Positions 8,214 to 52,419 of a DNA stretch of 64,000 bases are shown one piece after another. The DNA is from Spirochaetota bacterium. Its GTDB lineage: Bacteria; Spirochaetota; UBA4802; UB4802. The position numbers and the translations under genes are program-made. The DNA lies in assembly GCA_026414805.1 (NCBI GenBank), contig JAOAIH010000001.1, forward strand, positions 51,335 to 115,334, read 5' to 3'. Position 1 is the stretch's first letter, and each line of letters opens with the position of its first letter. The notes beneath the pieces are model-generated. The model was given only the letters and a program-made list of their open reading frames with translations. It was not told the DNA's origin and did no database searches.

Positions 8214-8261
8214 TGCCTGTTACCTTTTTTCAAAAAAATTAAATTATATACAATCTGTATT

Positions 8262-10373
<2,112 letters not shown>

Positions 10374-10393
<20 letters not shown>

Positions 10394-11830: not shown

Positions 11831-11847
11831 TATGGGCAGTATATATT

Positions 11848-24644: not shown

Positions 24645-25205
24645 ATGAAGAAGATAAAACGTCTATCAATGTATATTATTTGGTATGTACTTGCTCTGTA
24701 TTTGAGTGCGGTGTATGCAGAAAACCAGAGTAGCCTGCATAGTATAGTACTAAAAGATGAAACATTGATTGTACCTGGCACAGGTGCTTCAGGCATAGTA
24801 ATCGGTATGCCTGAACGTGAGGTCGTATTGATAAAGGGCAAGCCTTTTGAAAAAACAAAAAGTGTTGTCCATGAATTTTTTAAAGATGTATTAAAAATAA
24901 ATTCTCCATCACAGCTTCACTTTAATTATCTATATATATACAAGAGCCCATCAGCATTTATTGGAATATATAAAGAAAAAGTATCATTTATTGTAGTATG
25001 GAATTCCACTGGCATATTGATTGAAGGAATACCACTATCTAAGGGTTTACAGGCAATAGTATATCATTATGGGAATGAGGGCATGTTGAGTATTTCTGGG
25101 GCAGATGGGAAGATATGCATATATTCTTCAAAAGGAATAGCCTTTATTGATGATAAGAATGATAATAGCATTGATGGCATTATAATTTTTAAAGGTAATA
25201 TGTAA
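24645..25205 (+). CDS. secreted hypothetical protein
   Basis: Signal peptide (MKKIKRLSMYIIWYVLALYLSAVYA); no other motif. Confidence 0.45.
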   Translation: MKKIKRLSMYIIWYVLALYLSAVYAENQSSLHSIVLKDETLIVPGTGASGIVIGMPEREVVLIKGKPFEKTKSVVHEFFKDVLKINSPSQLHFNYLYIYKSPSAFIGIYKEKVSFIVVWNSTGILIEGIPLSKGLQAIVYHYGNEGMLSISGADGKICIYSSKGIAFIDDKNDNSIDGIIIFKGNM

Positions 25206-27432: not shown

Positions 27433-27921
27433 ATGATTACTATAGCAATAGTTGTTGTAAGTGATAGGTCGTACAATAAAGAGCGTGAGGATCTTTCAGG
27501 GAAGGCTATTGAGAAGTGGGCACATAGCAGAGGGTATGATGTTGTAGAATATATCATTGTGCCAGATGAGCGCGAGATGATCGCACGCACCTTGCGAGAC
27601 CTGTGTGCAAAAAATATTAATTGTATTCTCACTACAGGAGGAACAGGATTTGCTCATCGAGACGTTACACCTGAGGCAACTTCAGATGTTATTGAACGAT
27701 ATGCTCCAGGCTTTACTGAAGCAATGCGACAGGAATCACTTAAAATCACAAAACATGCAATGTTGTCACGGGCAATTGCAGGGATTAGAGGCTCATCAAT
27801 TATTATTAATTTACCGGGTAGTCCAAAAGCTGTTGTAGAAAATCTTGAAGTTATCCAGGATGCGCTGCCTCATGCTGTGAAACTTTTGCAGGGGCAGGTT
27901 AAAGATTGCGCTCATGAATAA
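27433..27921 (+). CDS. mogA: molybdopterin adenylyltransferase MogA/MoaB family
   Basis: IAIVVVSDRS...ILTTGGTGFAHRDVTPEAT matches the MogA/MoaB GGTG motif region; 162 aa. Confidence 0.8.
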   Translation: MITIAIVVVSDRSYNKEREDLSGKAIEKWAHSRGYDVVEYIIVPDEREMIARTLRDLCAKNINCILTTGGTGFAHRDVTPEATSDVIERYAPGFTEAMRQESLKITKHAMLSRAIAGIRGSSIIINLPGSPKAVVENLEVIQDALPHAVKLLQGQVKDCAHE

Positions 27922-38800: not shown

Positions 38801-41495
38801 CGCCAATGGTGGTGGATGATAAACCTGGGCCTGACCCTACTGTAGTTGGGAAAGATGGATTATTAAAAATATAACCTGTATCTTCGGATATATTCCGGTT
38901 AGTATCATAATCTAAGAATCCATTACGGTTGCTATCTTCACTGTCAAGGATCCCATCCCCGTCGCTATCTTCGTTTATACTGCCAATATCGCAATAAAGG
39001 TCAATGGTTCCTGTGCCACCAGTACTGCGATACCATATCTCTACATATTCAATTGTAGAAAGATCAACTGGTTTGGGCGATAATGTACGGGTAACAATGG
39101 AGATATACTCACCTGTGCTGAAGTCAAAATTTAACCCTAAAGACCGCTGGGATTGTTCTGTTTGTATGGATTCCGCTATATGCCCTGTGGCAACATTGTA
39201 CGGACCAGGCTTTTTTGAATAGGGAACATTAATAGGGGTAAAGTTTAATCCGTACAGTGTTTGGGGATTATTAATATCACGGTAGAATTTATAATAAATT
39301 CGCGCACGATCGTTCTGTGTAATACCGGCTGGCAATGAACCAAGTATCCAGTCTTTCTCGGACATTGACAGCGTAAGACCTGAATAGATTGATTCAAAAT
39401 CATCAATAAGGCCTTTGCCAAAAGTGTTGATGCTGTGATAGCTTTTTGCAAATTCTGCATACCCTTTGAACATTGCAGGCACTGATATATCAGAATTGGT
39501 TATGTTTGATGCTAAGGCTGATATATCATGAGGGCTGAACTCTACTGTGCTATCGGCTTCAATAACAGTTGTTTGCGTTGGTTCGTTCCCTAACAATGGA
39601 ACAGTGGATGCCATGCCCTGTGTGGTATACAGGATTGTACCACCTACATTAATGTTTTTGTTGAGAGCATAATCAGCACGCATGCCACCGATAAACTGCT
39701 GTGCCTGCCCTTCAAAGGGAAGATACTGGTAGCTTACTTCAATATCGGTTTCAGGTGTTATGACTGGATTGCCAGAATTGGTGAACTGGAAAAAACCTGA
39801 TGTAGGGTCAACGCTGTATAGACTTTCTGCAATCTGTATGCCATTAATTTTTACACGTACTGTGTCAGGGATTATGTTGACGTGTTTAAGCTGAAACCCA
39901 CGTGACTGGCTGTATCCTGCAATGCCAATTTTATACTGTGAAACTGTAAACGCCTGCTGATTTTGTGATTCAGTATAGATAATTTTTTGTGATTGTGCAG
40001 GCAATAGACCTTTAAAGGGTTCGCGCAGCTTAAAAGTGATAGTACCAGAATTATAATCCACATTAAAATTGCCTAATTTTTGTATATCAGATTGAGACAT
40101 TGGGAAAAGGTTATTGAAAAAAGATATTTTTACATCTTCAGCACGTATATTTTGTAAGCCTGTAGAGTATATCCCGCGAATTTCATAGATGTCTAAATTT
40201 AGTGTACCGTCATTATTAGTGTCCTCACCGGGATCAAGGGTACCATTAAAATTGACATCTTCGTGAATTGACGGGCCATATTTAATAAACACGCATATTT
40301 TGCCTGGAAATTGTGGGTGTGTAGTGATTGCAGAAGGGTCAGAGGTTTGAGTGCTTCCACCATTACGCGTATATACTGCAAATATTTTTGCTTGAGGTTT
40401 AAAAGATTTTAATAGGGCGATAGTACCTGTGGAAAAGTTTATGGTGTAATCAGAACCCTGTTGCAATCTTCTGAAATATCCCAAAATAATAGAAGGATCA
40501 TCCCATTTGCGAAGTTCCAGCAATCCACTTTTACTTTGTGTGATAGCTTCATCAGCATACAGTTCAAAACCAGAGCTATCGATACCCACAGGATACGGTG
40601 TGTAGGTAGAAGGGATAGCAGGTGTTGAAGTCCAGGTAATGGTTGTATAATAATTTGTTGGTGGAGTATCACTATTATCATAACGCTTGAAAGGTTCCAA
40701 CTGATAGTAGGTGGCTTTGGTATACTGGTATTCCTGCAATGTAATGCTTGCGCTTGAGAAGTTTCCCTTAAATCGTTCTATTTCGCTGACTCCCTTTGCA
40801 ACGGAGCCAAATGCTTTTAATTGCAAGTTACCCTTTTTAATAGTAAAATCAATTCCCATACCTTTTGATGAGGTATCATCGTATACGGCATATTTTGATT
40901 TGTTCACTTTAATGGTTATATCACCAGCATTGATTTCACGCAACACTTCATCATCTTCTACAGCTTTATATTGCATAATATAGGTGTTGGTACGCTGCTG
41001 GCTGTCATGGTCTATGTAAAGTGTGAGTCGTCGCCCTGCTTTCCCTTCGATATGCAACTGCATAGTCTGTTCGGGACTAAATCCTTGTTGAATTAATGTT
41101 GAAGTGGGTTTATCCTCATCAAATCGCTTATACTTATTGTTAGTAAAAAAAGATTTTCCATATTTAAGGTTAAGGTTCATTGATCCATAGGAGAGGATAT
41201 CATAAGGCTCTTCTTGTGATAAGGTTTCAGTGCCGGGAATGGTATATTTGTAATGAGGATCAATGATATATTTAGTCCAATCACCCTGATTATATTCAAA
41301 GGGTGATTGTGTGTCATCTCCAACTGCTGGCACTGTTTCAACAGGGACATCTGTTTTTTTTTCTATTACTTTGTATGTTGAAATGTATTCATCTATTAAT
41401 TGTCTAAAAGAGGAAGTTGGTTGTTGGGAAATGACTATGGCAGTTGCTGATGTCAGCAGTACACCAATAACGATGATATTGGATAGTGATTTCAT
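35856..41495 (-). CDS. giant (1879 aa) secreted outer-membrane beta-barrel-type protein with thrombospondin-type-3-like Ca-binding repeats; SprA/Sov-like (candidate T9SS translocon) at low confidence
   Basis: Signal peptide. Repeated DxDxDG/DxNxNG motifs (DSDGDGILDSEDSNRNGFLDYDTNRN, DLNDNGMLDTGE, DPGEDTNNDGTLNLD). The C-terminal residues ...FQFSLLF end in Phe, as outer-membrane beta-barrels do. The size is comparable to SprA. Confidence 0.6.
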   Translation of the reverse strand: MKSLSNIIVIGVLLTSATAIVISQQPTSSFRQLIDEYISTYKVIEKKTDVPVETVPAVGDDTQSPFEYNQGDWTKYIIDPHYKYTIPGTETLSQEEPYDILSYGSMNLNLKYGKSFFTNNKYKRFDEDKPTSTLIQQGFSPEQTMQLHIEGKAGRRLTLYIDHDSQQRTNTYIMQYKAVEDDEVLREINAGDITIKVNKSKYAVYDDTSSKGMGIDFTIKKGNLQLKAFGSVAKGVSEIERFKGNFSSASITLQEYQYTKATYYQLEPFKRYDNSDTPPTNYYTTITWTSTPAIPSTYTPYPVGIDSSGFELYADEAITQSKSGLLELRKWDDPSIILGYFRRLQQGSDYTINFSTGTIALLKSFKPQAKIFAVYTRNGGSTQTSDPSAITTHPQFPGKICVFIKYGPSIHEDVNFNGTLDPGEDTNNDGTLNLDIYEIRGIYSTGLQNIRAEDVKISFFNNLFPMSQSDIQKLGNFNVDYNSGTITFKLREPFKGLLPAQSQKIIYTESQNQQAFTVSQYKIGIAGYSQSRGFQLKHVNIIPDTVRVKINGIQIAESLYSVDPTSGFFQFTNSGNPVITPETDIEVSYQYLPFEGQAQQFIGGMRADYALNKNINVGGTILYTTQGMASTVPLLGNEPTQTTVIEADSTVEFSPHDISALASNITNSDISVPAMFKGYAEFAKSYHSINTFGKGLIDDFESIYSGLTLSMSEKDWILGSLPAGITQNDRARIYYKFYRDINNPQTLYGLNFTPINVPYSKKPGPYNVATGHIAESIQTEQSQRSLGLNFDFSTGEYISIVTRTLSPKPVDLSTIEYVEIWYRSTGGTGTIDLYCDIGSINEDSDGDGILDSEDSNRNGFLDYDTNRNISEDTGYIFNNPSFPTTVGSGPGLSSTTIGDGVLNTEDLNDNGMLDTGEQYIRIPGLPSPLSVNLADTSWKSIRIYVNKNNPSLYATNPDAFYDILKKIYSIRLILHKATATSGTILIDTIRFVTMHWQVDSIDGISGSNTDKVKLTLIDSFNDTDYAQESFARIKSDVYTSLYGDKSKKELTQTMESALKVTYSAISSATIKRKFHKPMDLRFYRNIHSWINMRSFTPGDILTFRIHSSDSDYLEYSYTPQLLHTWEDIVLSLQCKNTNVQFKKKEGEPDLKRITAITVSVENTTPTNGEFWLNDIYTSDPMTLEDTASWYEGTVKITKPITRTESGTPVLSDITVSYVKKKHGNNFYTIGQPYNDISEDYNQATLTCSVLPYWHTSFDYIQEQSRTDSLNEQVSPTKRGTTNIQQFHFSSTLSPPDTAIPQLNVLYNYENFTNRQAYYQDINTFDNDTSKTTHQATVGLQQSLHDIVGGDLSYRIFLDASFKEDIFKEYSQSLTSGYNTQKKQRQSCSININYQFTHFFISPRIQHVSEEFLTYSGTVTDINPVLSNEISSGFHIPFLYNDTIRFIERLKKYSLALGLQRYKFINPTITYEFSYFENQFKDLLPYDNWLHYGFKRTRSTQGFLSNTLSLPINLQSYFPSIKNCSINYTRSSTLNEINVPYEGESINFYEEKFGAGRYCNASANSIYNLLQYPPWYFFKGRSNYARGRDFVTYTLSSQPVVNQTTFSEYNNYFRLLDNVSFAISWELSPFIIFVNSSLHSVSDRNGVNSPSQQVVTYTLVSSLSCDLMKIFSFGFFRPNRPNLPYHSATALFEYQFNKYLRITSNILINEHTPSIGTTFKWDRSSIATKFGISYRSQQWYEFIPIEEDKRSAKDDIYYYNMTMQPPYTNIDKGYTFSTIYETDVPFIYDFFSIWYTLTALPIFRLEYLMTLNRYNYTYFTSPEPYDLYSISSSLTINMHKNVQGQCIARGILERFRNRETNGINREIISYELGFQFSLLF

Positions 41496-42692: not shown

Positions 42693-43055
42693 TTGCTAAC
42701 GAATATGGAATGTAAACGATGCGGAACATGCTGCAATGATGTACGACTTGCCGAATCACCAGAAATGCTTAAAAAAGCCTATGAATATTGGCGAAAACTC
42801 CCTTCAGTTGACCCAAAATTTTCAGAAATATACCTCATTTACCCCATGCTAACATTTAAATATGAAAATCCCTCTGAGGATTTACCTTACCATTATGTAT
42901 GCAAGCATTTTACACGTGACAGCAATGGACTTGGTGTATGCAGTATATACCAAATAAGGCCTCGCATGTGTAGAGATTTCCCTTATTATGAGGGAATTGA
43001 ACTGGCACATGAAGAAAAGATAAGCCCTTATGAAGGATGTGGGTATAATGAATAA
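42693..43055 (+). CDS. YkgJ-family (UPF0153) Fe-S/Zn-chelating CxxCxxCC domain protein
   Basis: CKRCGTCC ... C..Y.IRPRMCRDFPY matches the YkgJ pattern. Confidence 0.6.
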   Translation: MLTNMECKRCGTCCNDVRLAESPEMLKKAYEYWRKLPSVDPKFSEIYLIYPMLTFKYENPSEDLPYHYVCKHFTRDSNGLGVCSIYQIRPRMCRDFPYYEGIELAHEEKISPYEGCGYNE

Positions 43056-43266
43056 CTATGCTTAAGATTATAGAACATCCAGCTTTTTTGATTAGATATT
43101 TCTATTTCAGGGGGCAATCTGGCAATTGTGTGAACCGTATTGCAGGCTTGAAAAGTATGTTCTATATGCTATGCTCTTTTTTTCATATCTAAATTATTGT
43201 AAAAAACGCTTGTATTAATAGCAAGGGCAATGTATAGTTTTTCAAGGATTAAAAAATGGTGTGTAA

Positions 43267-43809
43267 ATGAAATCTGAAAATAAAGACAAGCTTTTAGCTG
43301 TATTGTTTTATACACTGGTAGCTGCCTATTCTTACCTGGTATTGACAGTGGGTTCTGGAAACGATATTTTATTCTGGTCGTATGAAGAATTAATTTTTGG
43401 GATTGTAATTAGTATCATTTTGGCATCTGTCACCTACTGGCTTATACCAATAAAAATTACCGGAAAATTACTGAATCCGTTTTTTTATGTGGGGATAGTA
43501 TTATATTTCATTGGCCCTTTTTTTGTAGCGCTTTTGATAGCTAATCTGGAAGTACTTTACAGAATTATTACTGGGAAAATTAAACCCGCTATTGTAAAAG
43601 TTGATCCGGAAATTAACGATGAGATGGGTGTGTATCTACTGGCAAATTCAATAACGCTATCGCCTGGAACACTCACAATAGGTGTTGATCCCGAAAAACG
43701 AAAATTATTCATTCACTGTTTGTACTGGGATAAAGCAAAGGAATATTCTGCTGTGCCAAAAGATGTTGCAGGTTTTCTGCACTATTTTTTAAAAAAGCTT
43801 TTTACATGA
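43267..43809 (+). CDS. Mrp/Mnh antiporter subunit E-like (MbhA-like), first gene of the hydrogenase cluster
   Basis: LANSITLSPGTLTIGVDPEKRKLFIHCL matches the MnhE signature LANxITLTPGT. Confidence 0.65.
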   Translation: MKSENKDKLLAVLFYTLVAAYSYLVLTVGSGNDILFWSYEELIFGIVISIILASVTYWLIPIKITGKLLNPFFYVGIVLYFIGPFFVALLIANLEVLYRIITGKIKPAIVKVDPEINDEMGVYLLANSITLSPGTLTIGVDPEKRKLFIHCLYWDKAKEYSAVPKDVAGFLHYFLKKLFT

Positions 43810-43822
43810 AACAGGCGTATAT

Positions 43823-44092
43823 ATGTATGATTATAACTCTATATTTTTGATATCTGCATTTCTCTGTATACTATATGTATGCATTATCGTTATACGGATT
43901 GCATTCAGCCATAACGTCCCTGAACGGATTGTAGCGCTTGATACAATTAATACATTAATTATCGTTATCATGATTGTTTTAGGTGCTGCTCAAAAGAAGG
44001 CCTTGTATATTGATATTGGTATAGTCTATGGGATTATCTCTTTTATTGGTACATTATATATTGCCCGATATCTCATAGATGAGAGGAAATGA
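43823..44092 (+). CDS. Mrp/Mnh subunit F-like small membrane protein (MbhB-like)
   Basis: 89 aa, 3 TM; its position after the MnhE-like gene follows the cluster order. Confidence 0.5.
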   Translation: MYDYNSIFLISAFLCILYVCIIVIRIAFSHNVPERIVALDTINTLIIVIMIVLGAAQKKALYIDIGIVYGIISFIGTLYIARYLIDERK

Positions 44093-44500
44093 ATGGACGC
44101 TTTGATTTTGGTTTGTATGGCAATTGGTTTATTTGTTAATGGTATGAGCATTATTGGGCTAATGCGCTTTCCTGATATATATACCCGCCTGCACGCAGCT
44201 ACAAAAACTACAACATTTGGAAGTATTTTTGTGGTTTTAGCGATAGTTATTAAAAATATATTTTATTATGACCCCACCAGTCTCACAATTATTATTCATA
44301 GTATTGTTGCATTGCTGGTTATTATATTTACTAATCCAATCAGCGCTCATGCAATTGCACGAGCATCATTACTGTCGGGCATTAAGCCTGTGGGCGTTAT
44401 AATTAATGAGTTTGACTATAAATCCCAGATGAAAACCGCTGATGAGCTTGAATTGGAAAAGGTGAGTGAAGGAATCCCGGATGAAGGTGGTATGGTATGA
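44093..44500 (+). CDS. Mrp/Mnh subunit G-like (MbhC-like)
   Basis: RFPDIYTRLHAATKTTTFGSIFVV matches the MnhG signature. Confidence 0.65.
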   Translation: MDALILVCMAIGLFVNGMSIIGLMRFPDIYTRLHAATKTTTFGSIFVVLAIVIKNIFYYDPTSLTIIIHSIVALLVIIFTNPISAHAIARASLLSGIKPVGVIINEFDYKSQMKTADELELEKVSEGIPDEGGMV

Positions 44501-44739
44501 TGTATTATTTTTTTCTGGTTATTTCAATAGCACTAGTAATAACTGCACTGCTTTCAATATATTTTCGTGATCTTCTTGCAGCAATAGTGAGCTATTCGGT
44601 CTTTTCATTAGTACTCACTGTACTGTATTTTCTCCTTGATGCGCCTGATGTAGCTATTGCTGAAGCTGGAATTGGTGCAGCACTGACCACCTGTATTTTT
44701 GTTATCGCAATTAGGATGACACGGAGAAGGGAAGAATGA
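44497..44739 (+). CDS. small membrane subunit (MbhD-like)
   Basis: 80 aa, 2-3 TM; overlapping start and stop within the operon. Confidence 0.45.
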   Translation: MMYYFFLVISIALVITALLSIYFRDLLAAIVSYSVFSLVLTVLYFLLDAPDVAIAEAGIGAALTTCIFVIAIRMTRRREE

Positions 44740-45569
44740 GGCTTTTAAGTGTTGTAGCTATTGTCATTATATTTGGGTTTTTATTTGTTGGGATACTTAA
44801 CCTTCATCCAGTGGGGCAGGCTATTGGGAATCCGGATGTATTAAAGGAAAGGCCAGAGTATGGCATTGATGTCCAGGGCGTTACCACTATGGATGATTAT
44901 TTTTTACGAAACGGACAGGTAGAAACAAAATCAAACAATATTGTGGCAAGTGTAGTATTTGATTATAGAGGATTTGATACATTGGGGGAAGCAACAGTAT
45001 TATTCGTTGTGGTAAGCAGCATTTCAATGCTATTCTTTACATTCCTTAAGAGCAAAAGTATTGTATCAGCGGGTGTACCTCCCGCAGGGCAGTTCCCTAA
45101 AATTGAATCACGGATAATAACATTTGGAGCTTTTATCATGTATATCATGATATTAAGTTTTGGTGTGTATCTAGTGGTACATGGACATCTTTCCCCTGGG
45201 GGTGGTTTCCAGGGTGGCTCGGTTATGGCTTCTGCTACTGCGCTTCTGCTTATAAGTTTTTTAATTACCAGGCATATGCAACGCACTCGTAAAATATTTT
45301 CATTCTTTGAATCATTTGGATTAACAATTTTTATTGGTATCGGTTTTACTGGAATTGGAATATCATTTTTATATAATTTTCTAGCGCACAGTGGCGCTGC
45401 ATTTGGAAGGCTTATCCCATTTGGGCCCAATCAGGGTTATCTTATTTCCGCTGGAATATTGCCATGGCTGTCACTGGCTGTGGGTATTGAAGTATTTTTT
45501 GGATTAAGTCTTATACTTGTGACGTTATTCCATGCATCGGGAGTGAAAAATAATTCTTTGCAACGGTAA
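44736..45569 (+). CDS. Mrp/Mnh subunit B-like membrane protein (MbhE/F-like)
   Basis: IVASVVFDYRGFDTLGEATVLF matches the MnhB motif NIVxAIlxDyRGxDTLGE. Confidence 0.6.
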   Translation: MRLLSVVAIVIIFGFLFVGILNLHPVGQAIGNPDVLKERPEYGIDVQGVTTMDDYFLRNGQVETKSNNIVASVVFDYRGFDTLGEATVLFVVVSSISMLFFTFLKSKSIVSAGVPPAGQFPKIESRIITFGAFIMYIMILSFGVYLVVHGHLSPGGGFQGGSVMASATALLLISFLITRHMQRTRKIFSFFESFGLTIFIGIGFTGIGISFLYNFLAHSGAAFGRLIPFGPNQGYLISAGILPWLSLAVGIEVFFGLSLILVTLFHASGVKNNSLQR

Positions 45570-45573
45570 TGCT

Positions 45574-45933
45574 ATGGCAGCTATTGTACTTTATGTAACA
45601 TTTATTTTACTGCTGATTATAGGGATAATTGCTCTACTGTTTAAACGAAACCTTATAAAGATTGTGCTTGCATTTAACATTCTAGACTCAGGCATAAACC
45701 TTTTTTTTATTACACTTGGCTATCGTGAAAATGCTATGGCGCCCATTTTCACTTTAGCGCCATTTGATTATGTCTTCACCATGGTATTGCCAACGCCTCA
45801 GGCTTTGATATTAACCAATATTGTTATTGGATTTGCCACTACTGCACTGATGTTGGGTGTTGCTGTACTTACCTATAGAAACAACAATACAATGGATACA
45901 CGAAAATTACGTGGAGTTGAAGAGTATGATTAA
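45574..45933 (+). CDS. Mrp/Mnh subunit C / NuoK-like (MbhG-like)
   Basis: 119 aa, 3 TM, NuoK/MnhC-like N-terminus (LLLIIGIIALLFKRNLIKIVLAFNILDSGINLFFITLG). Confidence 0.6.
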   Translation: MAAIVLYVTFILLLIIGIIALLFKRNLIKIVLAFNILDSGINLFFITLGYRENAMAPIFTLAPFDYVFTMVLPTPQALILTNIVIGFATTALMLGVAVLTYRNNNTMDTRKLRGVEEYD

Positions 45934-47458
45934 ACACGTGCCGGTATTACTGGTAACTATACCGCTTCTGGTTGCATTTATGGTGCCAATGATTGGTATG
46001 GTTAATCGTACTGCACGTACAATTATTGGGGCGATAGCTCTTGTTATTATAATGGCAGCATCTTATTATATTGCTGGTGATGTTTTGCTTCATGGAAGGA
46101 TTTTTTATTATATGGTAGGTTCTTCTAATCCGGAAGTTGTTACAGAACATGGTTTAACGTTCCCAATACGTATAGGGTTGAAAATTGACCAATTTTCGCT
46201 CTTTTTTATTATCATGGCAACAACTCTTGTATTTATTTTTTATGTATTCTCAACGCAATATATTGAGGAAAATGATAGGAAAAATTATTTTGTTGTGCTT
46301 TTTATAAGCATGGTAGCGGGTATGATGGGTTTGCTTGTTGCAAATGACCTGTTTACATTCTTTGTATTTTTAGAAATTCTTTCAATTTCATCGGCTGCTC
46401 TGGTGGCTTTCAGAACTGAACGAAGGCATCCGCCGTATGCTGGGTATAAATACATGTTTGTGAGTGCAGTGGCAACTAGTTTCTTTTTGTTAGGAATTGC
46501 TTTTTTATATGCTCAGTATGGATCATTCAATATTGACTATCTCAAAGAAGCTTTACGGGGAACATTCTTAGATAAAATTGCTATTATACTTCTCATTATT
46601 CCACTTGCAATGAAATCAGGCGTTGTTCCTATGCATATGTGGATACCTGATACCTATTCTGAAGCTCCTGCCCCAATAAGTGCAATGGTAAAATTAGCAA
46701 GTTTAATTTGTCTTTATGGTTTATTCAGGATTTCCTTTTCTTTTGGATTAAGCCATGCTCATGTTAGTTATCCTCTTGGAATATTATTTATTGTGTTTGG
46801 AATATTATCAATGTTTGTAGGGGTAACTCAAGCGCTGGTACAAAGGGATGTGAAACGCCTTATGGCTTTTCACGCCGTTTCGCAAGTTGGATATATGCTG
46901 TTAGGTATGGGTGTTGGATTATCAGTGATTAAATCAGGTGATGCTTCTTTTGCTCTTTTTGGAAAAGTAGCTATGATAGGGGGACTGCTTCATGTAGTTA
47001 ATAATGCATTATATAAGGGATTGCTGTTTTTAACATCAGGTATTTTGGTACGACATTTTAAAACACGTAATCTGGATGAAATGCATGGCTTAGCACATTA
47101 TGATATTTTTACTACAGTAGTGTTTATGATTGCTGCCCTTGCAATATCAGGGATTCCACCGTTCAATGGATTTATATCAAAAATTATCATTTATGAATCT
47201 GTTTTCCAGTACAATCCAGTGTTGACATTGATTGCAATATTTGTTTCAATTTTAACGCTGGCTTCATTTATGAAAGTTTTTTACAGTGCTTTTCTTGGTA
47301 TGCCCTGTGACAGAATCCCAAAAGAACAGCCTATTTTGATTAAATGCAGTATGCTTTTGATTTCAATATTTATTATAGTAATTGGTATATTCCCCCAAGG
47401 TATATTAAAGATATTGATTGAACCAGCTATTAATGCCTTAATCAATTTTCAGGGGTAA
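45926..47458 (+). CDS. MrpD/NuoL/NuoN-like proton-pumping antiporter subunit (MbhH-like)
   Basis: ~510 aa polytopic protein of the complex-I antiporter-like family. The probable start MIKHV overlaps the preceding stop. Confidence 0.8.
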   Translation: MIKHVPVLLVTIPLLVAFMVPMIGMVNRTARTIIGAIALVIIMAASYYIAGDVLLHGRIFYYMVGSSNPEVVTEHGLTFPIRIGLKIDQFSLFFIIMATTLVFIFYVFSTQYIEENDRKNYFVVLFISMVAGMMGLLVANDLFTFFVFLEILSISSAALVAFRTERRHPPYAGYKYMFVSAVATSFFLLGIAFLYAQYGSFNIDYLKEALRGTFLDKIAIILLIIPLAMKSGVVPMHMWIPDTYSEAPAPISAMVKLASLICLYGLFRISFSFGLSHAHVSYPLGILFIVFGILSMFVGVTQALVQRDVKRLMAFHAVSQVGYMLLGMGVGLSVIKSGDASFALFGKVAMIGGLLHVVNNALYKGLLFLTSGILVRHFKTRNLDEMHGLAHYDIFTTVVFMIAALAISGIPPFNGFISKIIIYESVFQYNPVLTLIAIFVSILTLASFMKVFYSAFLGMPCDRIPKEQPILIKCSMLLISIFIIVIGIFPQGILKILIEPAINALINFQG

Positions 47459-47462
47459 GGTA

Positions 47463-47798
47463 ATGAATATATTTCAAGTAGAATATCTTCACTGGACACC
47501 ACTGTTATGGTTGGGGATTTTTTTTGTGTTGTTTATTGTAATGATTATTGTTGGAAAACTTTTTTTCAGAAATGATTATAATACAGTTGATCAGCAAAGC
47601 TTGCCTTTTTACTCGGGGACAAGTAATAAAATGCTCCAAATGATTACCGCAAGCAATTTATACTGGGGTTTTAAGCATGCTCTGGATGTGTATTTTACTG
47701 CTATCAAGAAATTATTCATAAGTGATGTTGAAGATTTTATTCAATGGTTTATTATAATAATAGCGTGTATGCTTCTTTTAGTAACAGGAGTATTATAG
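47463..47798 (+). CDS. small membrane subunit (MbhI-like)
   Basis: 111 aa, 2 TM, inside the operon. Confidence 0.4.
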   Translation: MNIFQVEYLHWTPLLWLGIFFVLFIVMIIVGKLFFRNDYNTVDQQSLPFYSGTSNKMLQMITASNLYWGFKHALDVYFTAIKKLFISDVEDFIQWFIIIIACMLLLVTGVL

Positions 47799-48226
47799 TG
47801 AAGATAAATTACCGCCATTTGAAACGTTCCTTATGGGCTTATCATTTGAATACAGGGTCATGCAATGCATGTGATATTGAGATTTTGGCAACACTTATGC
47901 CTCGGTATGATATTGAACGCTTTGGTATAAAACTGGTTGGTACCCCACGTCATGCTGATGTTTTACTTGTTACTGGAACTGTAACCGAAAAGATTAAAGA
48001 AAGCGTCATTCAAGTATATCAGCAGGTACCAGAACCCAAGTTGGTGATTGTCATTGGAGGGTGTGGTTCAACTAAAGGTGTGTTTCAGGAGTCCTATGCA
48101 ATGGCTGGACCGGTTGATGAAATAATTCCTGTTGATGTGTACATACCCGGGTGTCCACCAAGACCTGAAGCTATAATTTATGGAATAGCAAAAGCCTGGG
48201 AAAAATTGGAAAAATTCCAAAAATGA
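47798..48226 (+). CDS. [NiFe] hydrogenase small subunit, NuoB/HycG-like (MbhJ-like)
   Basis: Four-Cys [4Fe-4S] ligands GSCNACDIE, GGCGSTKG and IPGCPP. GTG start at 47798 overlaps the upstream TAG, with an AGGAG ribosome-binding site 8 nt before it. Confidence 0.85.
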   Translation: MKINYRHLKRSLWAYHLNTGSCNACDIEILATLMPRYDIERFGIKLVGTPRHADVLLVTGTVTEKIKESVIQVYQQVPEPKLVIVIGGCGSTKGVFQESYAMAGPVDEIIPVDVYIPGCPPRPEAIIYGIAKAWEKLEKFQK

Positions 48227-48244
48227 AGTTACTATATATATGCC

Positions 48245-48739
48245 ATGGGTACTGAATCTATTATAACAGCTTTACAGGAAAAATTAGGAAGTCATATTGT
48301 GGCATCTAGGGAAAAGATTAAAGAATATGCAAGTGGTGTTTCCCGCATTACACTATGGATAAGTATTGATAGAGAGTCATTTCATCACGCTGTGGGGATT
48401 TTAAAAACCCTTGGAAGGTTACATATATCTACACCAATGCCCTACAAGGAGTATGAAGACCGCATAGAACTTATATATCCTTTTGCTTTGAAGATGAAAG
48501 ATGCCAGGTTCTCTGAGGTAATGGTCATTCTATCAGTAGATGTCCCCAAAGAAGATTTAATGGTACGCACAATTACCGATATTGTCCCTGGGGCTCTATT
48601 TATGGAACGAGAGGCTATGGAAATGATAGGAGTTGCAATTGAAGATATACCTGACCCACGTAGGCTTTTTACAGGTAATTATTTGCCAGATGGTTTTTAT
48701 CCACTAAGGGAATCAGGTAAGAAGGAAATATTACCATGA
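48245..48739 (+). CDS. NuoC/HycE-N-terminal-like subunit (MbhK-like)
   Basis: ALFMEREAMEMIGVAIEDIPDPRRLFTGNYLPDGFYPLRE matches the 30-kDa subunit signature (ERExxDMFGIxFxxHPDLRRIL). Confidence 0.65.
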   Translation: MGTESIITALQEKLGSHIVASREKIKEYASGVSRITLWISIDRESFHHAVGILKTLGRLHISTPMPYKEYEDRIELIYPFALKMKDARFSEVMVILSVDVPKEDLMVRTITDIVPGALFMEREAMEMIGVAIEDIPDPRRLFTGNYLPDGFYPLRESGKKEILP

Positions 48740-49974
48740 AATCAGATATATACTATCCGTTAAATATTGGTCCTGTACATCCTGCATTTAAGGAACCTAT
48801 TAAATTTACTTTCAGAATAGAAGGTGAAAAGGTTATTGGAGCTGATATAGAATTTGGGTACACGCACAGAGCCATAGAAAGAGTTGCTCAGGAAAGAAAT
48901 TACATCCAGATTATCTATCTTTTAGAAAGAGTCTGTGGTATTTGTTCTTTCTCACATCCAATGGCATATTGCCTGGCTATTGAGGATGTAGCTGGTATTG
49001 AGGTTCCACCACGTGCAAGGTATATCCGGACTATCATTGGGGAGCTTGAACGCCTTCACTCTCACTTATTGTGGACGGGGGTTGCAGCTCATGAAATAGG
49101 ATTTGATACGCTGTTTATGTATACATGGAATATACGAGAAAAAGTCCTGGATTGTTTAGAGGAACTTACAGGGAACAGAATTAATTATGCAATGCTTACT
49201 ATAGGAGGTGTACGCCGTGATATAACTGCAGAAAATGCAGTAACTATCAATCAGATTCTAGAATACTATGAGGAATTATATAATAGAACTTCCGAAATAT
49301 TACTTGATGATTTAACGCTGAGAGCAAGAACTGAAAACATTGGAATTCTGACTCTGGAGCAGGCAGAGCGTTTATGTGCAGTAGGTCCAACAGCTCGGGG
49401 TTCGGGACTTTTGAAAGATGTTCGATTTGATTATCCTGTGAATGCATATTATGAAATACCTTGGTTAAAACCTGTATCACCTAAAGATATTGGGAAAGAA
49501 CCTATTGGTGATGTGTATGACAGGATGGCTGTTCGCGTATTAGAGATAAAACAATCAATCCAAATCATCCAATTTTGTATGGAAAACCTTCCTCAAGGGA
49601 ATATTAATACCGGTGAAAATGCTGTAAAGATGATAAACACTCTAAAGAAGCTTGAAGGGGAAGGAATAGGCCGGTATGAAGCACCACGTGGGGAAGTGTG
49701 CCATTATGTTATACTGGATAATCAAGAACATCCTGTTCAGATTAAAGTAAAAGCTCCAACATACTCTAATGGTTTTACCTGGGCACCAATGCTTACTAAT
49801 ATTGAGATAGCTGATATTCCAATAGTTATTGCTTCAATAGACCCATGTGTTGCATGTGCTGATAGGATGACATATATTCAATCGAATGGCAAATTGATCA
49901 CAATGTCGTGGGAAGAATTGCACAAAAAGAGTATACAGAAGTTCAAAGAGGCACGCAGAAAATGTTTGAGGTAA
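48736..49974 (+). CDS. group-4 [NiFe] hydrogenase large (catalytic) subunit (MbhL/HycE-like)
   Basis: N-terminal L1 motif ERVCGICSFSH (RxCGxCxxxH) and C-terminal L2 motif DPCVACADR (DPCxxCxxR) are both intact, which marks a true hydrogenase rather than a complex-I/Mbx-type paralogue. Confidence 0.85.
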   Translation: MKSDIYYPLNIGPVHPAFKEPIKFTFRIEGEKVIGADIEFGYTHRAIERVAQERNYIQIIYLLERVCGICSFSHPMAYCLAIEDVAGIEVPPRARYIRTIIGELERLHSHLLWTGVAAHEIGFDTLFMYTWNIREKVLDCLEELTGNRINYAMLTIGGVRRDITAENAVTINQILEYYEELYNRTSEILLDDLTLRARTENIGILTLEQAERLCAVGPTARGSGLLKDVRFDYPVNAYYEIPWLKPVSPKDIGKEPIGDVYDRMAVRVLEIKQSIQIIQFCMENLPQGNINTGENAVKMINTLKKLEGEGIGRYEAPRGEVCHYVILDNQEHPVQIKVKAPTYSNGFTWAPMLTNIEIADIPIVIASIDPCVACADRMTYIQSNGKLITMSWEELHKKSIQKFKEARRKCLR

Positions 49975-50975
49975 TGTATATAGCGATAGCTATCACTATC
50001 GCAGGTGTGATTGTGGGGCTTTTTCTTAAAGGTATAGATAGGAAACTTGCAGCGTATTTGCAGTCAAGGATTGGTCCACCTATCGCACAACCCCTGTACG
50101 ATGTAATGAAATTAATGCATAAACAGACAATTGTACCATCGACATCTGTACGATGGTTATTTAATGGAGCACCATTTGTTGCGCTTGTTTCATGTATAGT
50201 ATTATTCTTATATATTACCCTACCCTATATGTTTTATATTATGGGAATGCACAGTCCCCTTCACGGTGACCTTATTGTTGTCATCTACCTTGTTCTTATT
50301 CCATCCATTGCAGTTATCAGCGGTGCATTTGCATCAGGATCTCCATATGCTTCAATTGGTGCGCAGCGTGAAATGGTTCTTTTGATGAGTACAGAGTTGC
50401 CAATTGCAGTTGTAGTGGTGAGCATTGCATGGCATGTAGCTGATAGCTTGTATAATCCGTTTGCATTACAATCTTTTCTTGAATATACAGTATGGCATAA
50501 AGCGGGGGCATTTGGAATTCTGGGCAGTATTTTACTGTTGCTTGCAATGATGCTTGTTTTACCTGCTGAAATGTCTAAAGTACCATTTGATCAGGCCGAA
50601 GCTGAAACTGAGATAGCTGAGGGAGTGCTTGTAGAGTATTCTGGTAAGCTGCTGGCATTTTTGCTTTTAACAGATGCATTTAAAGCATTATCTTTATCAA
50701 TTCTGATAATTATATTGTTTTTCCCCTATACAATTTCAAGTTTGTTTGGAATATCGTTTACAATTGGTAATTATACTATCACCCCATTAGTTGAAATACT
50801 TTTTCTTGTATTCAAAATTATCATTGTCTATAGCTTTGGGGTTACTATTATTAGAGTAATTATGGCTCGATTAAAGATTTCGCAAGTTGCAAAAGTATTT
50901 CTTTTTGCAATTTCAGCAATAAGTATTATCGGAATGGTCTTGATTATGTTAGACCCTAAGATGAAAATGATGTGA
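49962..50975 (+). CDS. NuoH/HycD-like membrane subunit (MbhM-like)
   Basis: Polytopic membrane protein directly after the large subunit; the alternative ATG 49974 overlaps the stop (TAATG). Confidence 0.75.
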   Translation: MFEVMYIAIAITIAGVIVGLFLKGIDRKLAAYLQSRIGPPIAQPLYDVMKLMHKQTIVPSTSVRWLFNGAPFVALVSCIVLFLYITLPYMFYIMGMHSPLHGDLIVVIYLVLIPSIAVISGAFASGSPYASIGAQREMVLLMSTELPIAVVVVSIAWHVADSLYNPFALQSFLEYTVWHKAGAFGILGSILLLLAMMLVLPAEMSKVPFDQAEAETEIAEGVLVEYSGKLLAFLLLTDAFKALSLSILIIILFFPYTISSLFGISFTIGNYTITPLVEILFLVFKIIIVYSFGVTIIRVIMARLKISQVAKVFLFAISAISIIGMVLIMLDPKMKMM

Positions 50976-50985
50976 CAGGTGTACT

Positions 50986-51453
50986 ATGTTGGGAATGATA
51001 TATAAAGTAGTTGAGCAGCTATTTTCAAAAAAGTCTACAAATTTTTTCCCTTCAAAATATATACTGGAAAATACAGAGTATGCTCTGAAAAGCGGTTTAC
51101 TACATCCGACTGTTGAAGTCAAAGATGGCTTCAGGGGCAGGTTGAAATATGATTTTGAAAGCTGTACAGGCTGTGGATTATGTAACAAAGTATGCCCTGC
51201 TAATGCTATTGAATTATATCCTGCTCAAGTAAATGCCAAAAAAACAAAAAGGATCGTGATTTATTTATCACGGTGTACATATTGTCAGGAGTGTGTTAAT
51301 ATATGCCCTAAAAATTCAATTCAGATTACCAAAGATTTTTTTATGGCTGGTTATAAAAAATATGGAAATTCAATGGTTGTTGGTTTTGAGCACAGAGAAA
51401 ATTATGAGATAAAACAAGAGGAAAGCTCAGATGTTCAAAAAGAAGGAAATTGA
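50986..51453 (+). CDS. NuoI/HycF-like 2x[4Fe-4S] ferredoxin subunit (MbhN-like)
   Basis: Two ferredoxin motifs, CTGCGLCNKVCP and CTYCQECVNICP. Confidence 0.8.
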   Translation: MLGMIYKVVEQLFSKKSTNFFPSKYILENTEYALKSGLLHPTVEVKDGFRGRLKYDFESCTGCGLCNKVCPANAIELYPAQVNAKKTKRIVIYLSRCTYCQECVNICPKNSIQITKDFFMAGYKKYGNSMVVGFEHRENYEIKQEESSDVQKEGN

Positions 51454-51694
51454 GATAAAAGTAAAACTATATAGCGGGCTTCACAAGGAAGCTAAAATTG
51501 ATCATTATAACCCCGATTTAGGATATGTGCTTAAAATTCCAAAGGGTGCTCGGGTGAGGCATGTTGCAAAACTGTTAGGATTACCTGATATTTATTCACT
51601 GGCATATTTTTGCAATGGGCAGCGCATAGGTGTTTTCAAAAAGTTGCATGAAGGTGATGAGCTTTCCTGTTTTAGGCCTTCGGGCGGTGGCTGA
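51431..51694 (+). CDS. ThiS/MoaD-like ubiquitin-fold sulfur-carrier candidate ending in Gly-Gly(-Gly)
   Basis: 87 aa, beta-grasp-like pattern; the C-terminus ...CFRPSGGG-stop is the hallmark of sulfur-carrier proteins. Confidence 0.5.
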   Translation: MFKKKEIEIKVKLYSGLHKEAKIDHYNPDLGYVLKIPKGARVRHVAKLLGLPDIYSLAYFCNGQRIGVFKKLHEGDELSCFRPSGGG

Positions 51695-51696
51695 TA

Positions 51697-52419
51697 TTAT
51701 AGTAAATATTCGTCCTCTCTATGGCTCAATGATCTGAAAATACTAGATTGAGCACCTTTAACTGATTTGTTAATTATTTTTAAAAGTTCTTTTGTATGAT
51801 TTCGTTTTGTAAGATCCTTGTAAGGACATTCATTTTCAACAGGTGATAACATACATGCACTGCAATATCCTTTTACTTCAGCCTCTGTGAGAAATGCTAG
51901 AGGACGTATAATCTCCAATGTGCCATTAAACATTTTTAATTTAGGCGGCATGGTAGATAGTTTGCCATGATATAACATATTCATAAAAAAAGTAATTATA
52001 ATATCATCCTGATTGTGACCAAATGCTATTTTTTTACATCCCAGCTCGGCTGCGGTCTCAAATAAAATTTTTCTTCTAAACCATGAACAAACAAAGCAAG
52101 GAGAGGAATTTTTTCTTGAAAGATCTAGCGTTATTTCTTTAATATAAAGAGGTATATCGTAGTTGCAACAGTACTGTTTGAGTCTGTCAATGCTTTTACT
52201 ATTGTGAAAGTTTTTTACTATTACATGGCAGCAAAACAAATTATAATGTATTGGTATATGCTTTAAACGTCGGTGTAATGCATCCATCAAAACAAGTGAA
52301 TCTTTCCCTCCTGAAAGAGCTATAAGAATATTATCATTTGCTTCTATCATGTTATAGGTATTAATAGCTTTTCCTACAATCTTCAGTAATTTCCCAATCT
52401 GTTTATCCTTATGGTTCAT
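51697..52419 (-). CDS. ttcA: TtcA/TtuA-family PP-loop tRNA thiolase (short, 240 aa)
   Basis: PP-loop SGGKDS. CFVCSWFRRKILFETAAELGCKKIAFGHNQDDII...MPPKL closely parallels the E. coli TtcA block CNLCSRLRRG...GHHRDD...MPPKL. Confidence 0.8.
   Translation of the reverse strand: MNHKDKQIGKLLKIVGKAINTYNMIEANDNILIALSGGKDSLVLMDALHRRLKHIPIHYNLFCCHVIVKNFHNSKSIDRLKQYCCNYDIPLYIKEITLDLSRKNSSPCFVCSWFRRKILFETAAELGCKKIAFGHNQDDIIITFFMNMLYHGKLSTMPPKLKMFNGTLEIIRPLAFLTEAEVKGYCSACMLSPVENECPYKDLTKRNHTKELLKIINKSVKGAQSSIFRSLSHREDEYLL

What the first reader, a model, noticed from the sequence alone, without database searches (positions are those of the whole stretch)
51431..52419. ThiS/MoaD-like Gly-Gly protein tail-to-tail with a short TtcA/TtuA-family tRNA thiolase
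An 87-aa beta-grasp-like ORF ending ...PSGGG starts inside the last hydrogenase gene. It terminates 2 nt from the stop of a convergent 240-aa PP-loop/CxxC thiolase that aligns block-for-block with TtcA. The TtuA-TtuB (thiolase plus ubiquitin-like sulfur carrier) pairing is known from Thermus, and a linked pair like this suggests a sulfur-relay tRNA thiolation module. The thiolase is ~70 aa shorter than E. coli TtcA.
Basis: partly seen in the sequence, partly recalled or inferred. Interest (0 to 1): 0.5.

Follow-up and report, generated by a model that had tools for sequence, protein, structure and literature searches.

The report
MoaD-like sulfur carrier beside TtcA thiolase
A small ubiquitin-fold sulfur-carrier gene and a tRNA-thiolase gene do sit tail-to-tail here, but relatives show the carrier belongs to a known group normally partnered with tungsten aldehyde oxidoreductases, so the adjacency is probably not a dedicated thiolation module.

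Summary
An 87-aa ORF (51431-51694, +) ending PSGGG overlaps the last Mbh hydrogenase gene by 23 nt. It stops 2 nt from a convergent 240-aa PP-loop protein (51697-52419, -).

The small ORF is a real gene (dN/dS 0.02-0.06). It has a confident beta-grasp model (pLDDT 89.6) whose best matches are MoaD and SAMP1.

The thiolase has the SGGKDS PP-loop and the three [4Fe-4S] cysteines of E. coli TtcA. Its short length is normal for the family.

The proposed TtuA/TtuB-like pairing is not supported by comparative context:
- The two genes are convergent, so not co-transcribed.
- One relative with the same neighbourhood keeps the carrier but lacks both thiolase and hydrogenase. Another keeps carrier and thiolase without the hydrogenase.
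- Thiolase homologs at 48-50% identity have no carrier gene next to them.
- In four unrelated neighbourhoods, carrier homologs (28-48% identity, same GDExSCxxPSGGG tail) lie directly upstream of an aldehyde:ferredoxin oxidoreductase gene. This is the AOR-linked MoaD class described in 2006.

Best reading: a displaced MoaD-type sulfur carrier, probably for pterin cofactor synthesis, next to an ordinary stand-alone TtcA-family thiolase. A carrier-to-thiolase sulfur relay remains possible, at roughly 10-25% depending on whether shared use is counted.

The parts
51431..51694 (+). 87-aa MoaD/ThiS-type beta-grasp protein, a putative sulfur carrier, ending GDELSCFRPSGGG.
51418..51422 (+). Shine-Dalgarno GAGGA, 8 nt upstream of the ATG of the small gene, inside the 3' end of mbhN.
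   Evidence: Read from the sequence. Purine-rich equivalents are present in relatives.
51683..51691 (+). Codons for the C-terminal Gly85-Gly86-Gly87, the predicted site of adenylation and thiocarboxylation.
   Evidence: G86 and G87 are the only invariant columns across 49 family members. The codons vary synonymously among relatives.
51697..52419 (-). 240-aa TtcA-family PP-loop [4Fe-4S] tRNA thiolase, convergent with the small gene.
   Evidence: PF01171 and NF007972. An identical protein is named TtcA in an NCBI Spirochaetes MAG. AF2 model pLDDT 92.7. Foldseek top hits are TtuA 5mkp, 5ztb and 5gha at TM 0.80-0.86.
52297..52314 (-). PP-loop SGGKDS, residues 36-41 of the thiolase.
   Evidence: S36, G37, G38, D40 and S41 are invariant in 41 homologs and K39 nearly so. 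All six align with E. coli TtcA. Codons verified in the sequence.
52087..52098 (-). C108-F-V-C111, equivalent to E. coli TtcA Cys122 and Cys125 (Fe-S ligands).
   Evidence: Alignment A2. Ligand identity from PMC4081106.
51826..51828 (-). Cys198, equivalent to E. coli TtcA Cys222 (third Fe-S ligand).
   Evidence: invariant.
43267..51453 (+). Mbh-type group-4 [NiFe] hydrogenase operon (Mrp-like subunits plus NuoB/C/D/H/I-like subunits). Its last gene overlaps the small gene by 23 nt.
   Evidence: Pfam hits. NCBIfam hits.
42693..43055 (+). CxxCxxCC (PF03692) protein gene. In relatives without the hydrogenase it is the gene immediately upstream of the small gene.
   Evidence: 67% identical orthologs lie directly upstream of the carrier gene in L021, L022, L036 and L037. 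A PF03692 protein lies directly upstream of it in the P0230 contig.

Best explanation
The 87-aa gene encodes a MoaD-type ubiquitin-fold sulfur-carrier protein. It belongs to the subfamily whose members are usually encoded directly upstream of tungsten-pterin aldehyde:ferredoxin oxidoreductase (AOR) genes.

By analogy with MoaD (inferred, not shown here), an E1-like MoeB/ThiF enzyme encoded elsewhere would adenylate its C-terminal glycine. The glycine would then be converted to a thiocarboxylate. That sulfur would go into the dithiolene of the molybdo-/tungstopterin cofactor through a MoaE-type synthase subunit.

In this Leptospiraceae-related lineage the gene no longer sits beside an AOR gene. 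It lies in a conserved neighbourhood (CxxCxxCC gene, carrier, response regulator, cNMP-binding protein, PadR, RuvA/RuvC). Comparison with relatives suggests that an Mbh hydrogenase operon was later inserted upstream, so the carrier gene is now the overlapping, probably co-translated, last gene of that operon.

The convergent 240-aa gene is an ordinary stand-alone TtcA-family enzyme: a PP-loop ATPase with a three-cysteine [4Fe-4S] cluster. It most likely thiolates tRNA, with s2C32 as the default expectation, and takes sulfur as E. coli TtcA does, without a dedicated protein carrier. The tail-to-tail adjacency is most likely inherited synteny, not a functional module.
For: Fold and family:
- The AF2 model has pLDDT 89.6.
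- Foldseek top hits are MoaD 6jc0 (E 1e-5, TM 0.73), 1vjk and SAMP1.
- A profile of 49 family members hits P. furiosus MoaD-like 1vjk best (E 6e-5), against TtuB at 0.098.
- 39 of 49 members hit PF02597 and 34 of 49 hit TIGR01687 moaD_arch.

AOR linkage of the family. An AFOR gene lies immediately downstream on the same strand in four unrelated neighbourhoods:
- L023/L024.
- L025.
- L026-L035 and L038 (AFOR_N and AFOR_C confirmed).
- L040/L041.
The L026-L035/L038 homologs are 39-48% identical to the window protein and the other three are 28-36%. The closer ones share its GDE[VIL]SC[LF][KR]PSGGG tail. AOR-linked MoaD genes are a described class (PMC1779556; aorD/aorE in PMC6365974).

Independence from the thiolase and the hydrogenase:
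- L021, L022, L036 and L037 have CxxCxxCC, carrier, RR, cNMP, PadR, with neither thiolase nor Mbh.
- The P0230 contig has CxxCxxCC, carrier, a convergent PP-loop gene, then RR, without Mbh.
- Thiolase homologs P0022 and P0027 (50% and 48% identity) have no small Gly-Gly gene adjacent.

Thiolase is ordinary:
- The PP-loop and the three Cys ligands align with E. coli TtcA.
- There are thousands of homologs, mostly about 240-250 aa.
- It matches the TtuA catalytic core at TM 0.80-0.86.

A MogA/MoaB-like gene at 27433-27921 is consistent with pterin cofactor synthesis in this organism.
Against: - No AOR, MoaE, MoeB/ThiF or cysteine desulfurase gene is in the 64-kb window. The rest of the genome could not be examined, so the proposed pathway partners are unverified for this organism.
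- The carrier-thiolase junction (2-6 nt between stops) is kept in two deep subclades and in the P0230 contig, even though the carrier proteins have diverged to about 45% identity. That is compatible with selection for linkage.
- Some family members (L019/L020, the P0222 contig, L039) persist after loss of the adjacent AOR gene. The carrier therefore has a role not tied to a neighbouring AOR.
- The window protein itself scores below threshold in every Pfam and NCBIfam model. It carries a conserved Cys80 that canonical MoaD lacks.
Confidence: 0.55

Rival explanations
1. One reading: a TtuA/TtuB-like module. The 87-aa protein, as a C-terminal thiocarboxylate, is the dedicated sulfur donor for the adjacent TtcA-family thiolase. 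Its Gly-Gly tail would bind the free iron of the [4Fe-4S] cluster, as TtuB does in TtuA.
For: - The carrier is beta-grasp with a Gly-Gly end.
- The thiolase has the TtuA-like core and a 3-Cys cluster site.
- The tight tail-to-tail junction is conserved in two subclades and in the P0230 contig.
- The TtuB to [4Fe-4S] mechanism is established for TtuA (PMC7138817).
Against: - The genes are convergent, so they are not co-transcribed.
- The adjacency is confined to one syntenic lineage.
- L021, L022, L036 and L037 keep the carrier without the thiolase.
- The nearest thiolase homologs outside the clade lack a carrier neighbour.
- Carrier homologs in four independent contexts partner with AOR, and none of those sampled partners with a PP-loop gene.
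- The structure is closer to MoaD and SAMP1 than to TtuB or ThiS.
- E. coli TtcA works with Cys and IscS and no protein carrier (PMC4081106).
Confidence: 0.13
2. A shared, multi-purpose carrier. A single Ubl thiocarboxylate serves both pterin-cofactor synthesis and the TtcA-family thiolase, comparable to the redundant or shared Ubl carriers of Thermus and Thermococcus.
For: - The carrier is retained under strong purifying selection where no AOR gene is adjacent.
- Redundancy of Ubl sulfur carriers in Thermococcus kodakarensis is stated in the abstract of PMC11323500, listed (abstract only, not read in full).
- TtuA-type clusters accept carrier or sulfide sulfur (PMC7138817).
Against: - No direct evidence links this carrier to the thiolase beyond adjacency.
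- The number of Ubl carriers in the genome is unknown.
Confidence: 0.15
3. The small protein is an accessory or maturation component of the Mbh hydrogenase, since it is the overlapping last gene of that operon. RnfH, for comparison, is a beta-grasp subunit of Rnf.
For: - A 23-nt overlap with mbhN, with a Shine-Dalgarno inside mbhN.
- The same order in all Mbh-bearing relatives.
Against: - Orthologs at the same chromosomal position exist without any hydrogenase genes: L021, L022, L036, L037 and the P0230 contig.
- Family members elsewhere are AOR-linked.
- The invariant free Gly-Gly end points to carrier chemistry.
Confidence: 0.05
4. A SAMP-like protein modifier that is conjugated to target lysines, not a sulfur carrier.
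For: SAMP1 and SAMP2 are among the best structural and profile matches.
Against: - No E1, JAB or E2-like genes are in the window or in any related locus examined.
- AOR linkage fits cofactor sulfur chemistry.
Confidence: 0.04

Closest known systems
AOR-linked MoaD genes (Iyer, Burroughs and Aravind 2006, PMC1779556; aorD/aorE of Aromatoleum aromaticum, PMC6365974)
   Same: - A stand-alone beta-grasp protein of about 85 aa with a Gly-Gly end.
- Homologs at 28-48% identity, the closer ones with the same C-terminal motif, sit directly upstream of AFOR genes in four unrelated neighbourhoods.
- The best models are MoaD-type.
   Different: - In the window and its clade there is no AOR gene at the locus. 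The gene is instead the last gene of an Mbh operon, convergent with a thiolase.
- The subfamily carries a conserved Cys 8 residues from the end.
- The window protein is below threshold in Pfam and NCBIfam.
TtuA-TtuB of Thermus thermophilus (PDB 5gha, 5ztb)
   Same: - A PP-loop thiolase core with a 3-Cys [4Fe-4S] site.
- A beta-grasp Gly-Gly protein encoded nearby.
   Different: - The thiolase is about 65-70 aa shorter than the TtuA chains it matches and covers only about 65% of them. From my own knowledge the missing parts are TtuA's N- and C-terminal zinc-finger regions.
- Linkage is not conserved outside one lineage.
E. coli TtcA (tRNA s2C32 synthetase)
   Same: - 32% identity.
- SGGKDS PP-loop.
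- Cys108/111/198 align with Cys122/125/222.
- Best NCBIfam hit, E 1.7e-50.
   Different: - It scores 172 bits, below the 272-bit equivalog cut-off.
- It lacks E. coli's C-terminal tail of about 60 aa and a few N-terminal residues.
- The tRNA target position is untested.
Pyrococcus-type Mbh membrane-bound hydrogenase operon
   Same: The upstream genes are Mrp-like MnhE, MnhG, MnhB, NuoK-like and MrpD-like, followed by NuoB-, NuoC-, NuoD-, NuoH- and NuoI-like subunits.
   Different: It carries an extra MoaD-like gene overlapping its last gene. Relatives show that gene predates the operon at this site.

Membership tests
ThiS/MoaD beta-grasp sulfur carriers (PF02597) | Beta-grasp (ubiquitin-like) fold | tested here: met
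ThiS/MoaD beta-grasp sulfur carriers (PF02597) | Free C-terminal Gly-Gly | tested here: met
   The protein ends ...PSGGG followed by a stop. G86 and G87 are the only invariant columns in 49 family members.
ThiS/MoaD beta-grasp sulfur carriers (PF02597) | Significant match to the family profile | tested here: inconclusive
   The window protein has no Pfam or NCBIfam hit at E 0.1 or better. However, 39 of 49 homologs hit PF02597 (best 1e-8) and 34 of 49 hit TIGR01687. The family profile hits PDB 1vjk at E 6e-5.
ThiS/MoaD beta-grasp sulfur carriers (PF02597) | E1-like (MoeB/ThiF) activating enzyme and thiocarboxylate formation | not testable with these tools
   No ThiF-family gene was found in the 64-kb window.
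AOR-linked MoaD class | Sequence relatedness to MoaD-like genes that are adjacent to AFOR genes | tested here: met
   39-48% identity, tblastn E 1e-18 to 1e-24, to the AFOR-adjacent proteins of L026-L035 and L038. They share the C-terminal motif.
AOR-linked MoaD class | Gene immediately adjacent to an aldehyde:ferredoxin oxidoreductase gene | tested here: not met
   No AFOR gene is in the window or in L001-L014. The neighbours are mbhN and the thiolase.
TtuA-TtuB thiolation module | Thiolase with a PP-loop and three Cys ligands for a [4Fe-4S] cluster | tested here: met
   SGGKDS at residues 36-41, with C108, C111 and C198 aligned to the TtuA and TtcA ligands.
TtuA-TtuB thiolation module | TtuA-type N- and C-terminal zinc-finger CxxC pairs (the defining feature is from my own knowledge) | tested here: not met
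   The protein is 240 aa and covers only about 65% of TtuA chains (TMt 0.63-0.68). Only three Cys are invariant in the family.
TtuA-TtuB thiolation module | Carrier-thiolase gene linkage conserved across lineages | tested here: not met
   The carrier is retained without the thiolase in L021, L022, L036 and L037. Thiolase homologs P0022 and P0027 have no carrier beside them. Carrier homologs elsewhere are next to AFOR.
TtuA-TtuB thiolation module | Physical docking of the carrier C-terminus at the cluster | not testable with these tools
TtcA (tRNA 2-thiocytidine-32 synthetase) | PP-loop SGGxDS plus a central CxxC and a third Cys (E. coli C122, C125, C222) | tested here: met
   Alignment A2. Ligands from PMC4081106.
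TtcA (tRNA 2-thiocytidine-32 synthetase) | NCBIfam equivalog NF007972 score at or above its cut-off (272 bits) | tested here: not met
   172 bits. Even so, NCBI names the identical MAG protein TtcA.
TtcA (tRNA 2-thiocytidine-32 synthetase) | Forms s2C at tRNA position 32 | not testable with these tools
   This needs nucleoside analysis of a mutant or an in-vitro assay.

The most novel reading that the evidence does not exclude
In this Leptospiraceae-related lineage, an AOR-type MoaD carrier has been recruited as the protein sulfur donor for a zinc-finger-less TtcA-type thiolase. As far as I know from the reviews consulted, that would be the first TtcA-group enzyme fed by a ubiquitin-like thiocarboxylate. 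Expression of the carrier would be tied to a membrane-bound hydrogenase operon, linking tRNA thiolation to hydrogen and energy metabolism.
Probability: 0.12. Interest if true: 0.55.

Novelty: new member of a known kind. Interest (0 to 1): 0.27.

Why it matters
The finding is mostly a caution. A visually appealing pair, a Gly-Gly ubiquitin-fold protein beside a TtuA-like thiolase, turns out to be inherited synteny once relatives are examined.

Three modest positive results follow:
- A divergent MoaD-like subfamily, which current Pfam and NCBIfam models miss for the window protein, can be assigned to the AOR-linked MoaD class.
- This subfamily has a conserved cysteine near the C-terminus that canonical MoaD lacks.
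- A 14-gene Mbh hydrogenase operon was gained or lost precisely between two conserved genes in this lineage, leaving the carrier gene translationally coupled to the hydrogenase.

If the carrier did serve the thiolase, it would extend the TtuB paradigm to TtcA-type enzymes. The present evidence does not favour that.

Tried and rejected
- **Complex prediction.** I built a thiolase-linker-carrier fusion with paired orthologs to predict the complex.
- **Structure library.** The afdb50 fold library was unavailable.
- **Metagenome scans.** Scans with the broad alignments A3 and A4 failed because no stretch was conserved enough. A narrower alignment, A5, worked. It is biased toward one spirochaete-like lineage, so I count its 11 AOR-linked loci as one independent neighbourhood.
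- **Extending past the window.** A look-up with the GHMP-kinase ORF found no record.
- **Promoter and terminator scan.** Nothing above the shuffle expectation.
- **GC profile.** It does not mark the Mbh operon as foreign.
- **Apparent truncation in L014.** The truncated carrier gene is a run of masking N, not a deletion.
- **Hydrogenase-subunit idea.** Rejected because orthologs occur at the same site without any hydrogenase.
- **Literature.** A search for Leptospira plus Mbh hydrogenase found nothing.
Full report
**1. Observation**

The ORF list and the raw sequence confirm the description.
- An 87-aa ORF runs 51431-51694 on the + strand. It ends ...HEGDELSCFRPSGGG.
- Its ATG lies 23 nt inside the preceding gene (50986-51453). 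That gene is a two-[4Fe-4S] NuoI/MbhN-like subunit.
- A GAGGA Shine-Dalgarno at 51418-51422 lies 8 nt upstream of the ATG.
- Its TGA stop is separated by 2 nt from the stop of a convergent 240-aa ORF (51697-52419, - strand).

Upstream, 43267-51453 encodes an Mbh-type group-4 hydrogenase. It has MnhE-, MnhG-, MnhB/MbhE-, NuoK-like and MrpD-like subunits, then NuoB-, NuoC-, NuoD/NiFe-large-, NuoH- and NuoI-like subunits.

**2. The small ORF is a real, conserved gene**

- A homolog search found seven proteins of 87-91 aa at 62-89% identity.
- In the alignment the C-terminal GDELSC[FL]RPSGGG is invariant.
- A scan of one genome per species found eight more loci, all Leptospiraceae or Spirochaetota MAGs. 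Wherever the sequence is unmasked the ORF is intact. The apparent truncation in L014 is a run of N.
- Against close relatives dN/dS is 0.02-0.06 with dS above 1. The three terminal glycine codons vary synonymously.

**3. Fold and family of the small protein**

- Pfam and NCBIfam give no hit for the window protein itself.
- AlphaFold2 on the 8-sequence alignment gives a confident model: pLDDT 89.6, pTM 0.80. Its strand and helix order fits a beta-grasp.
- Foldseek against the PDB ranks mycobacterial MoaD2 6jc0 first (E 1e-5, TM 0.73). P. furiosus MoaD-like 1vjk and SAMP1 follow.
- An exhaustive profile search of 1.84 billion representatives found 93 proteins at E 1e-3 or better, 38 of them at 1e-10 or better. 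Almost all are 67-115 aa and end in GG.
- In a 49-member alignment only the last two glycines are invariant.
- 39 of the 49 members hit PF02597 ThiS. 34 of the 49 hit TIGR01687 moaD_arch.
- The family profile's best solved relative is 1vjk (E 6e-5). TtuB scores 0.098 and E. coli MoaD 0.28.

The protein is nearer to MoaD and SAMP1 than to TtuB or ThiS.

**4. The thiolase**

- The 240-aa protein matches PF01171 (E 6e-19). Its best NCBIfam match is TtcA NF007972 at 172 bits, below that model's 272-bit equivalog cut-off.
- An identical protein in an NCBI Spirochaetes MAG is named TtcA. More than 7000 homologs were found, and nearly all of the 120 best listed are about 232-281 aa.
- I aligned it with E. 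coli TtcA, taken from the K-12 record (32% identity).
  - The SGGKDS PP-loop (residues 36-41) is conserved.
  - Cys108, Cys111 and Cys198 line up with E. coli Cys122, Cys125 and Cys222. Those three residues are essential for s2C32 formation and were proposed as the [4Fe-4S] ligands (PMC4081106).
  - They are invariant in 41 homologs.
  - E. coli's extra length is a few N-terminal residues and a C-terminal tail of about 60 aa that the other homologs aligned also lack.
- By sequence, the closest solved structures are TtuA (PH0300; T. thermophilus) and NcsA.
- The AF2 model (pLDDT 92.7) superposes on TtuA at TM 0.80-0.86 over its whole length. It covers only about 65% of TtuA. From my own knowledge the uncovered parts are TtuA's zinc-finger regions.

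The thiolase is thus an ordinary TtcA-group enzyme. Its shortness is not a peculiarity.

**5. Is the pair a module?**

*Within the clade.* L001-L014 all carry the same layout: NuoH-like, NuoI-like and carrier on the + strand, the thiolase on the - strand, then response regulator, cNMP-binding protein, PadR, RuvA, RuvC and YebC. This shows descent, not function.

*More distant carrier homologs.* I found these through the profile and looked up their contigs.
- P0224 is 45% identical to the window carrier. On contigs L021 and L022, and again on L036 and L037, the order is CxxCxxCC, carrier, response regulator, cNMP, PadR, RuvA, RuvC, YebC. The flanking genes are 42-77% identical to the window's. 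There is no hydrogenase operon and no thiolase.
- P0230 is 46% identical. Its contig has CxxCxxCC, carrier, a convergent 243-aa PP-loop gene, then the response regulator and the rest. There is no hydrogenase.
- In the window, the orthologous CxxCxxCC gene is at 42693-43055, just before the Mbh operon.

The carrier is therefore an old resident of this site. The Mbh operon lies between CxxCxxCC and the carrier only in the window's clade. The thiolase is present in some lineages and absent in another.

*From the thiolase side.* The nearest homologs outside the clade, P0022 (50%) and P0027 (48%), have no small Gly-Gly gene and no hydrogenase nearby.

**6. What the carrier family associates with elsewhere**

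Seven carrier homologs from outside the window's clade were looked up.
- Three lie immediately upstream, on the same strand, of an aldehyde:ferredoxin oxidoreductase (AFOR) gene, each in a different neighbourhood:
  - P0171 on L023/L024.
  - P0237 on L025.
  - P0235 on L040/L041.
- Two, P0223 and P0222, lie in a spirochaete-like neighbourhood of Metallophos, FBPase_2, an outer-membrane beta-barrel protein, the carrier, then PlsB and STAS on the opposite strand.
- The other two, P0224 and P0230, are the Leptospiraceae-locus cases of section 5.

A metagenome scan found 14 more loci.
- In 11 of them (L026-L035 and L038) an AFOR gene follows the carrier. Where enough flank was recovered the neighbourhood is the same spirochaete-like one, often with Fe-ADH genes after the AFOR gene. 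AFOR_N and AFOR_C domains were confirmed.
- L039 has that neighbourhood without AFOR.
- L036 and L037 repeat the P0224 layout.

AFOR is therefore the only partner that recurs across lineages, in four unrelated contexts. The spirochaete-like AFOR-linked proteins (L026-L035, L038) are 39-48% identical to the window protein, and the other three AFOR-linked proteins are 28-36%. The closer ones share the GDE[VIL]SC[LF][KR]PSGGG tail.

In a rough NJ tree the AFOR-linked members are basal and surround the Leptospiraceae-locus proteins. An 87-residue tree has low resolution.

This matches a described class. [quoted passage not shown] They proposed that these make molybdopterin for the tungsten cofactor (PMC1779556). 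The A. aromaticum AOR operon carries the MoaD-like genes aorD and aorE, described as putative W-cofactor maturation factors (PMC6365974).

**7. Mechanism: shown versus inferred**

Shown:
- The fold, the Gly-Gly end and purifying selection on the carrier.
- Its family relationship to AOR-linked MoaD proteins.
- Independence of its chromosomal position from both the thiolase and the hydrogenase.
- Intact catalytic motifs in the thiolase.

Inferred from established MoaD/ThiS biochemistry:
- Adenylation by a MoeB/ThiF-type E1.
- Thiocarboxylation of Gly87.
- Sulfur delivery to the pterin precursor through MoaE.

None of these partners is in the window. Pfam scans of the window's longer, non-overlapping ORFs (about 50 of them) found no ThiF, MoaE, AFOR or cysteine desulfurase. 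The only cofactor-related gene found is a MogA/MoaB-like gene at 27433-27921.

The 23-nt overlap and the internal Shine-Dalgarno imply that the carrier is now expressed with the Mbh operon in this clade. In the other subclade the gap is 21 nt.

For the thiolase, the default is E. coli-like chemistry. ATP-dependent adenylation of the tRNA base is followed by sulfur delivery at the free iron of the cluster (PMC4081106).

A TtuB-like delivery (PMC7138817) cannot be excluded. The tight convergent junction is kept in three sublineages. Family members also survive loss of the adjacent AOR gene, which shows a role beyond a neighbouring AOR. I give about 0.13 to a dedicated carrier-thiolase module and about 0.15 to a shared carrier.

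**8. Verdict**

The identification of both parts is correct. The functional pairing is not supported.

The locus holds a divergent, currently unannotated member of the known AOR-linked MoaD class. It was displaced into the tail of an Mbh operon and sits beside an ordinary TtcA-family thiolase. This is a new member of a known kind, of modest interest.

Noticed in passing
window 42693-51694; compare L021, L022, L036, L037 and the P0230 contig: The whole Mbh-type hydrogenase operon (about 14 genes by comparison with Pyrococcus Mbh) sits exactly between the CxxCxxCC gene and the carrier gene. Relatives with the same flanking genes have these two genes directly adjacent, so an operon-sized gain or loss occurred at this spot. 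The GC profile does not mark it as foreign.
   Followed up: partly
window 51668-51670 (Cys80 of the 87-aa protein); family alignments A3 and A4: The carrier subfamily has a conserved cysteine 8 residues from the C-terminus (SC[LF][KR]PxxGG). It is present in 27 of the 38 best representative hits but only 6 of 53 weaker, canonical-MoaD-like hits. Its role is unknown.
   Followed up: partly
L008 about 8680-8700: The thiolase ortholog in one relative has a +1 frameshift inside an A10 run just before the CxxC motif, while the adjacent carrier ORF is intact. This could be an assembly error or a pseudogene.
   Followed up: partly
L014 7902-8000: A run of about 100 N masks the mbhN/carrier junction in this public record and mimics a truncated carrier gene.
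   Followed up: yes
window 27433-27921 (+): A 162-aa MogA/MoaB-like protein (PF00994 MoCF_biosynth) is the only pterin-cofactor-related gene seen in the window.
   Followed up: no
window 5769-14600 (-): A dnaA-dnaN-recF-gyrB-gyrA cluster is present, so the window probably lies next to the replication origin.
   Followed up: no
window 35856-41495 (-): A very long ORF of 1879 aa lies upstream of an M23 peptidase gene. It was not examined.
   Followed up: no
window 47463-47798 (+); 15139-16599 (-); 24645-25205 (+): Three ORFs have no Pfam hit. One is a 111-aa ORF inside the Mbh operon, between the MrpD-like and NuoB-like genes. The others are 486 aa and 186 aa.
   Followed up: no
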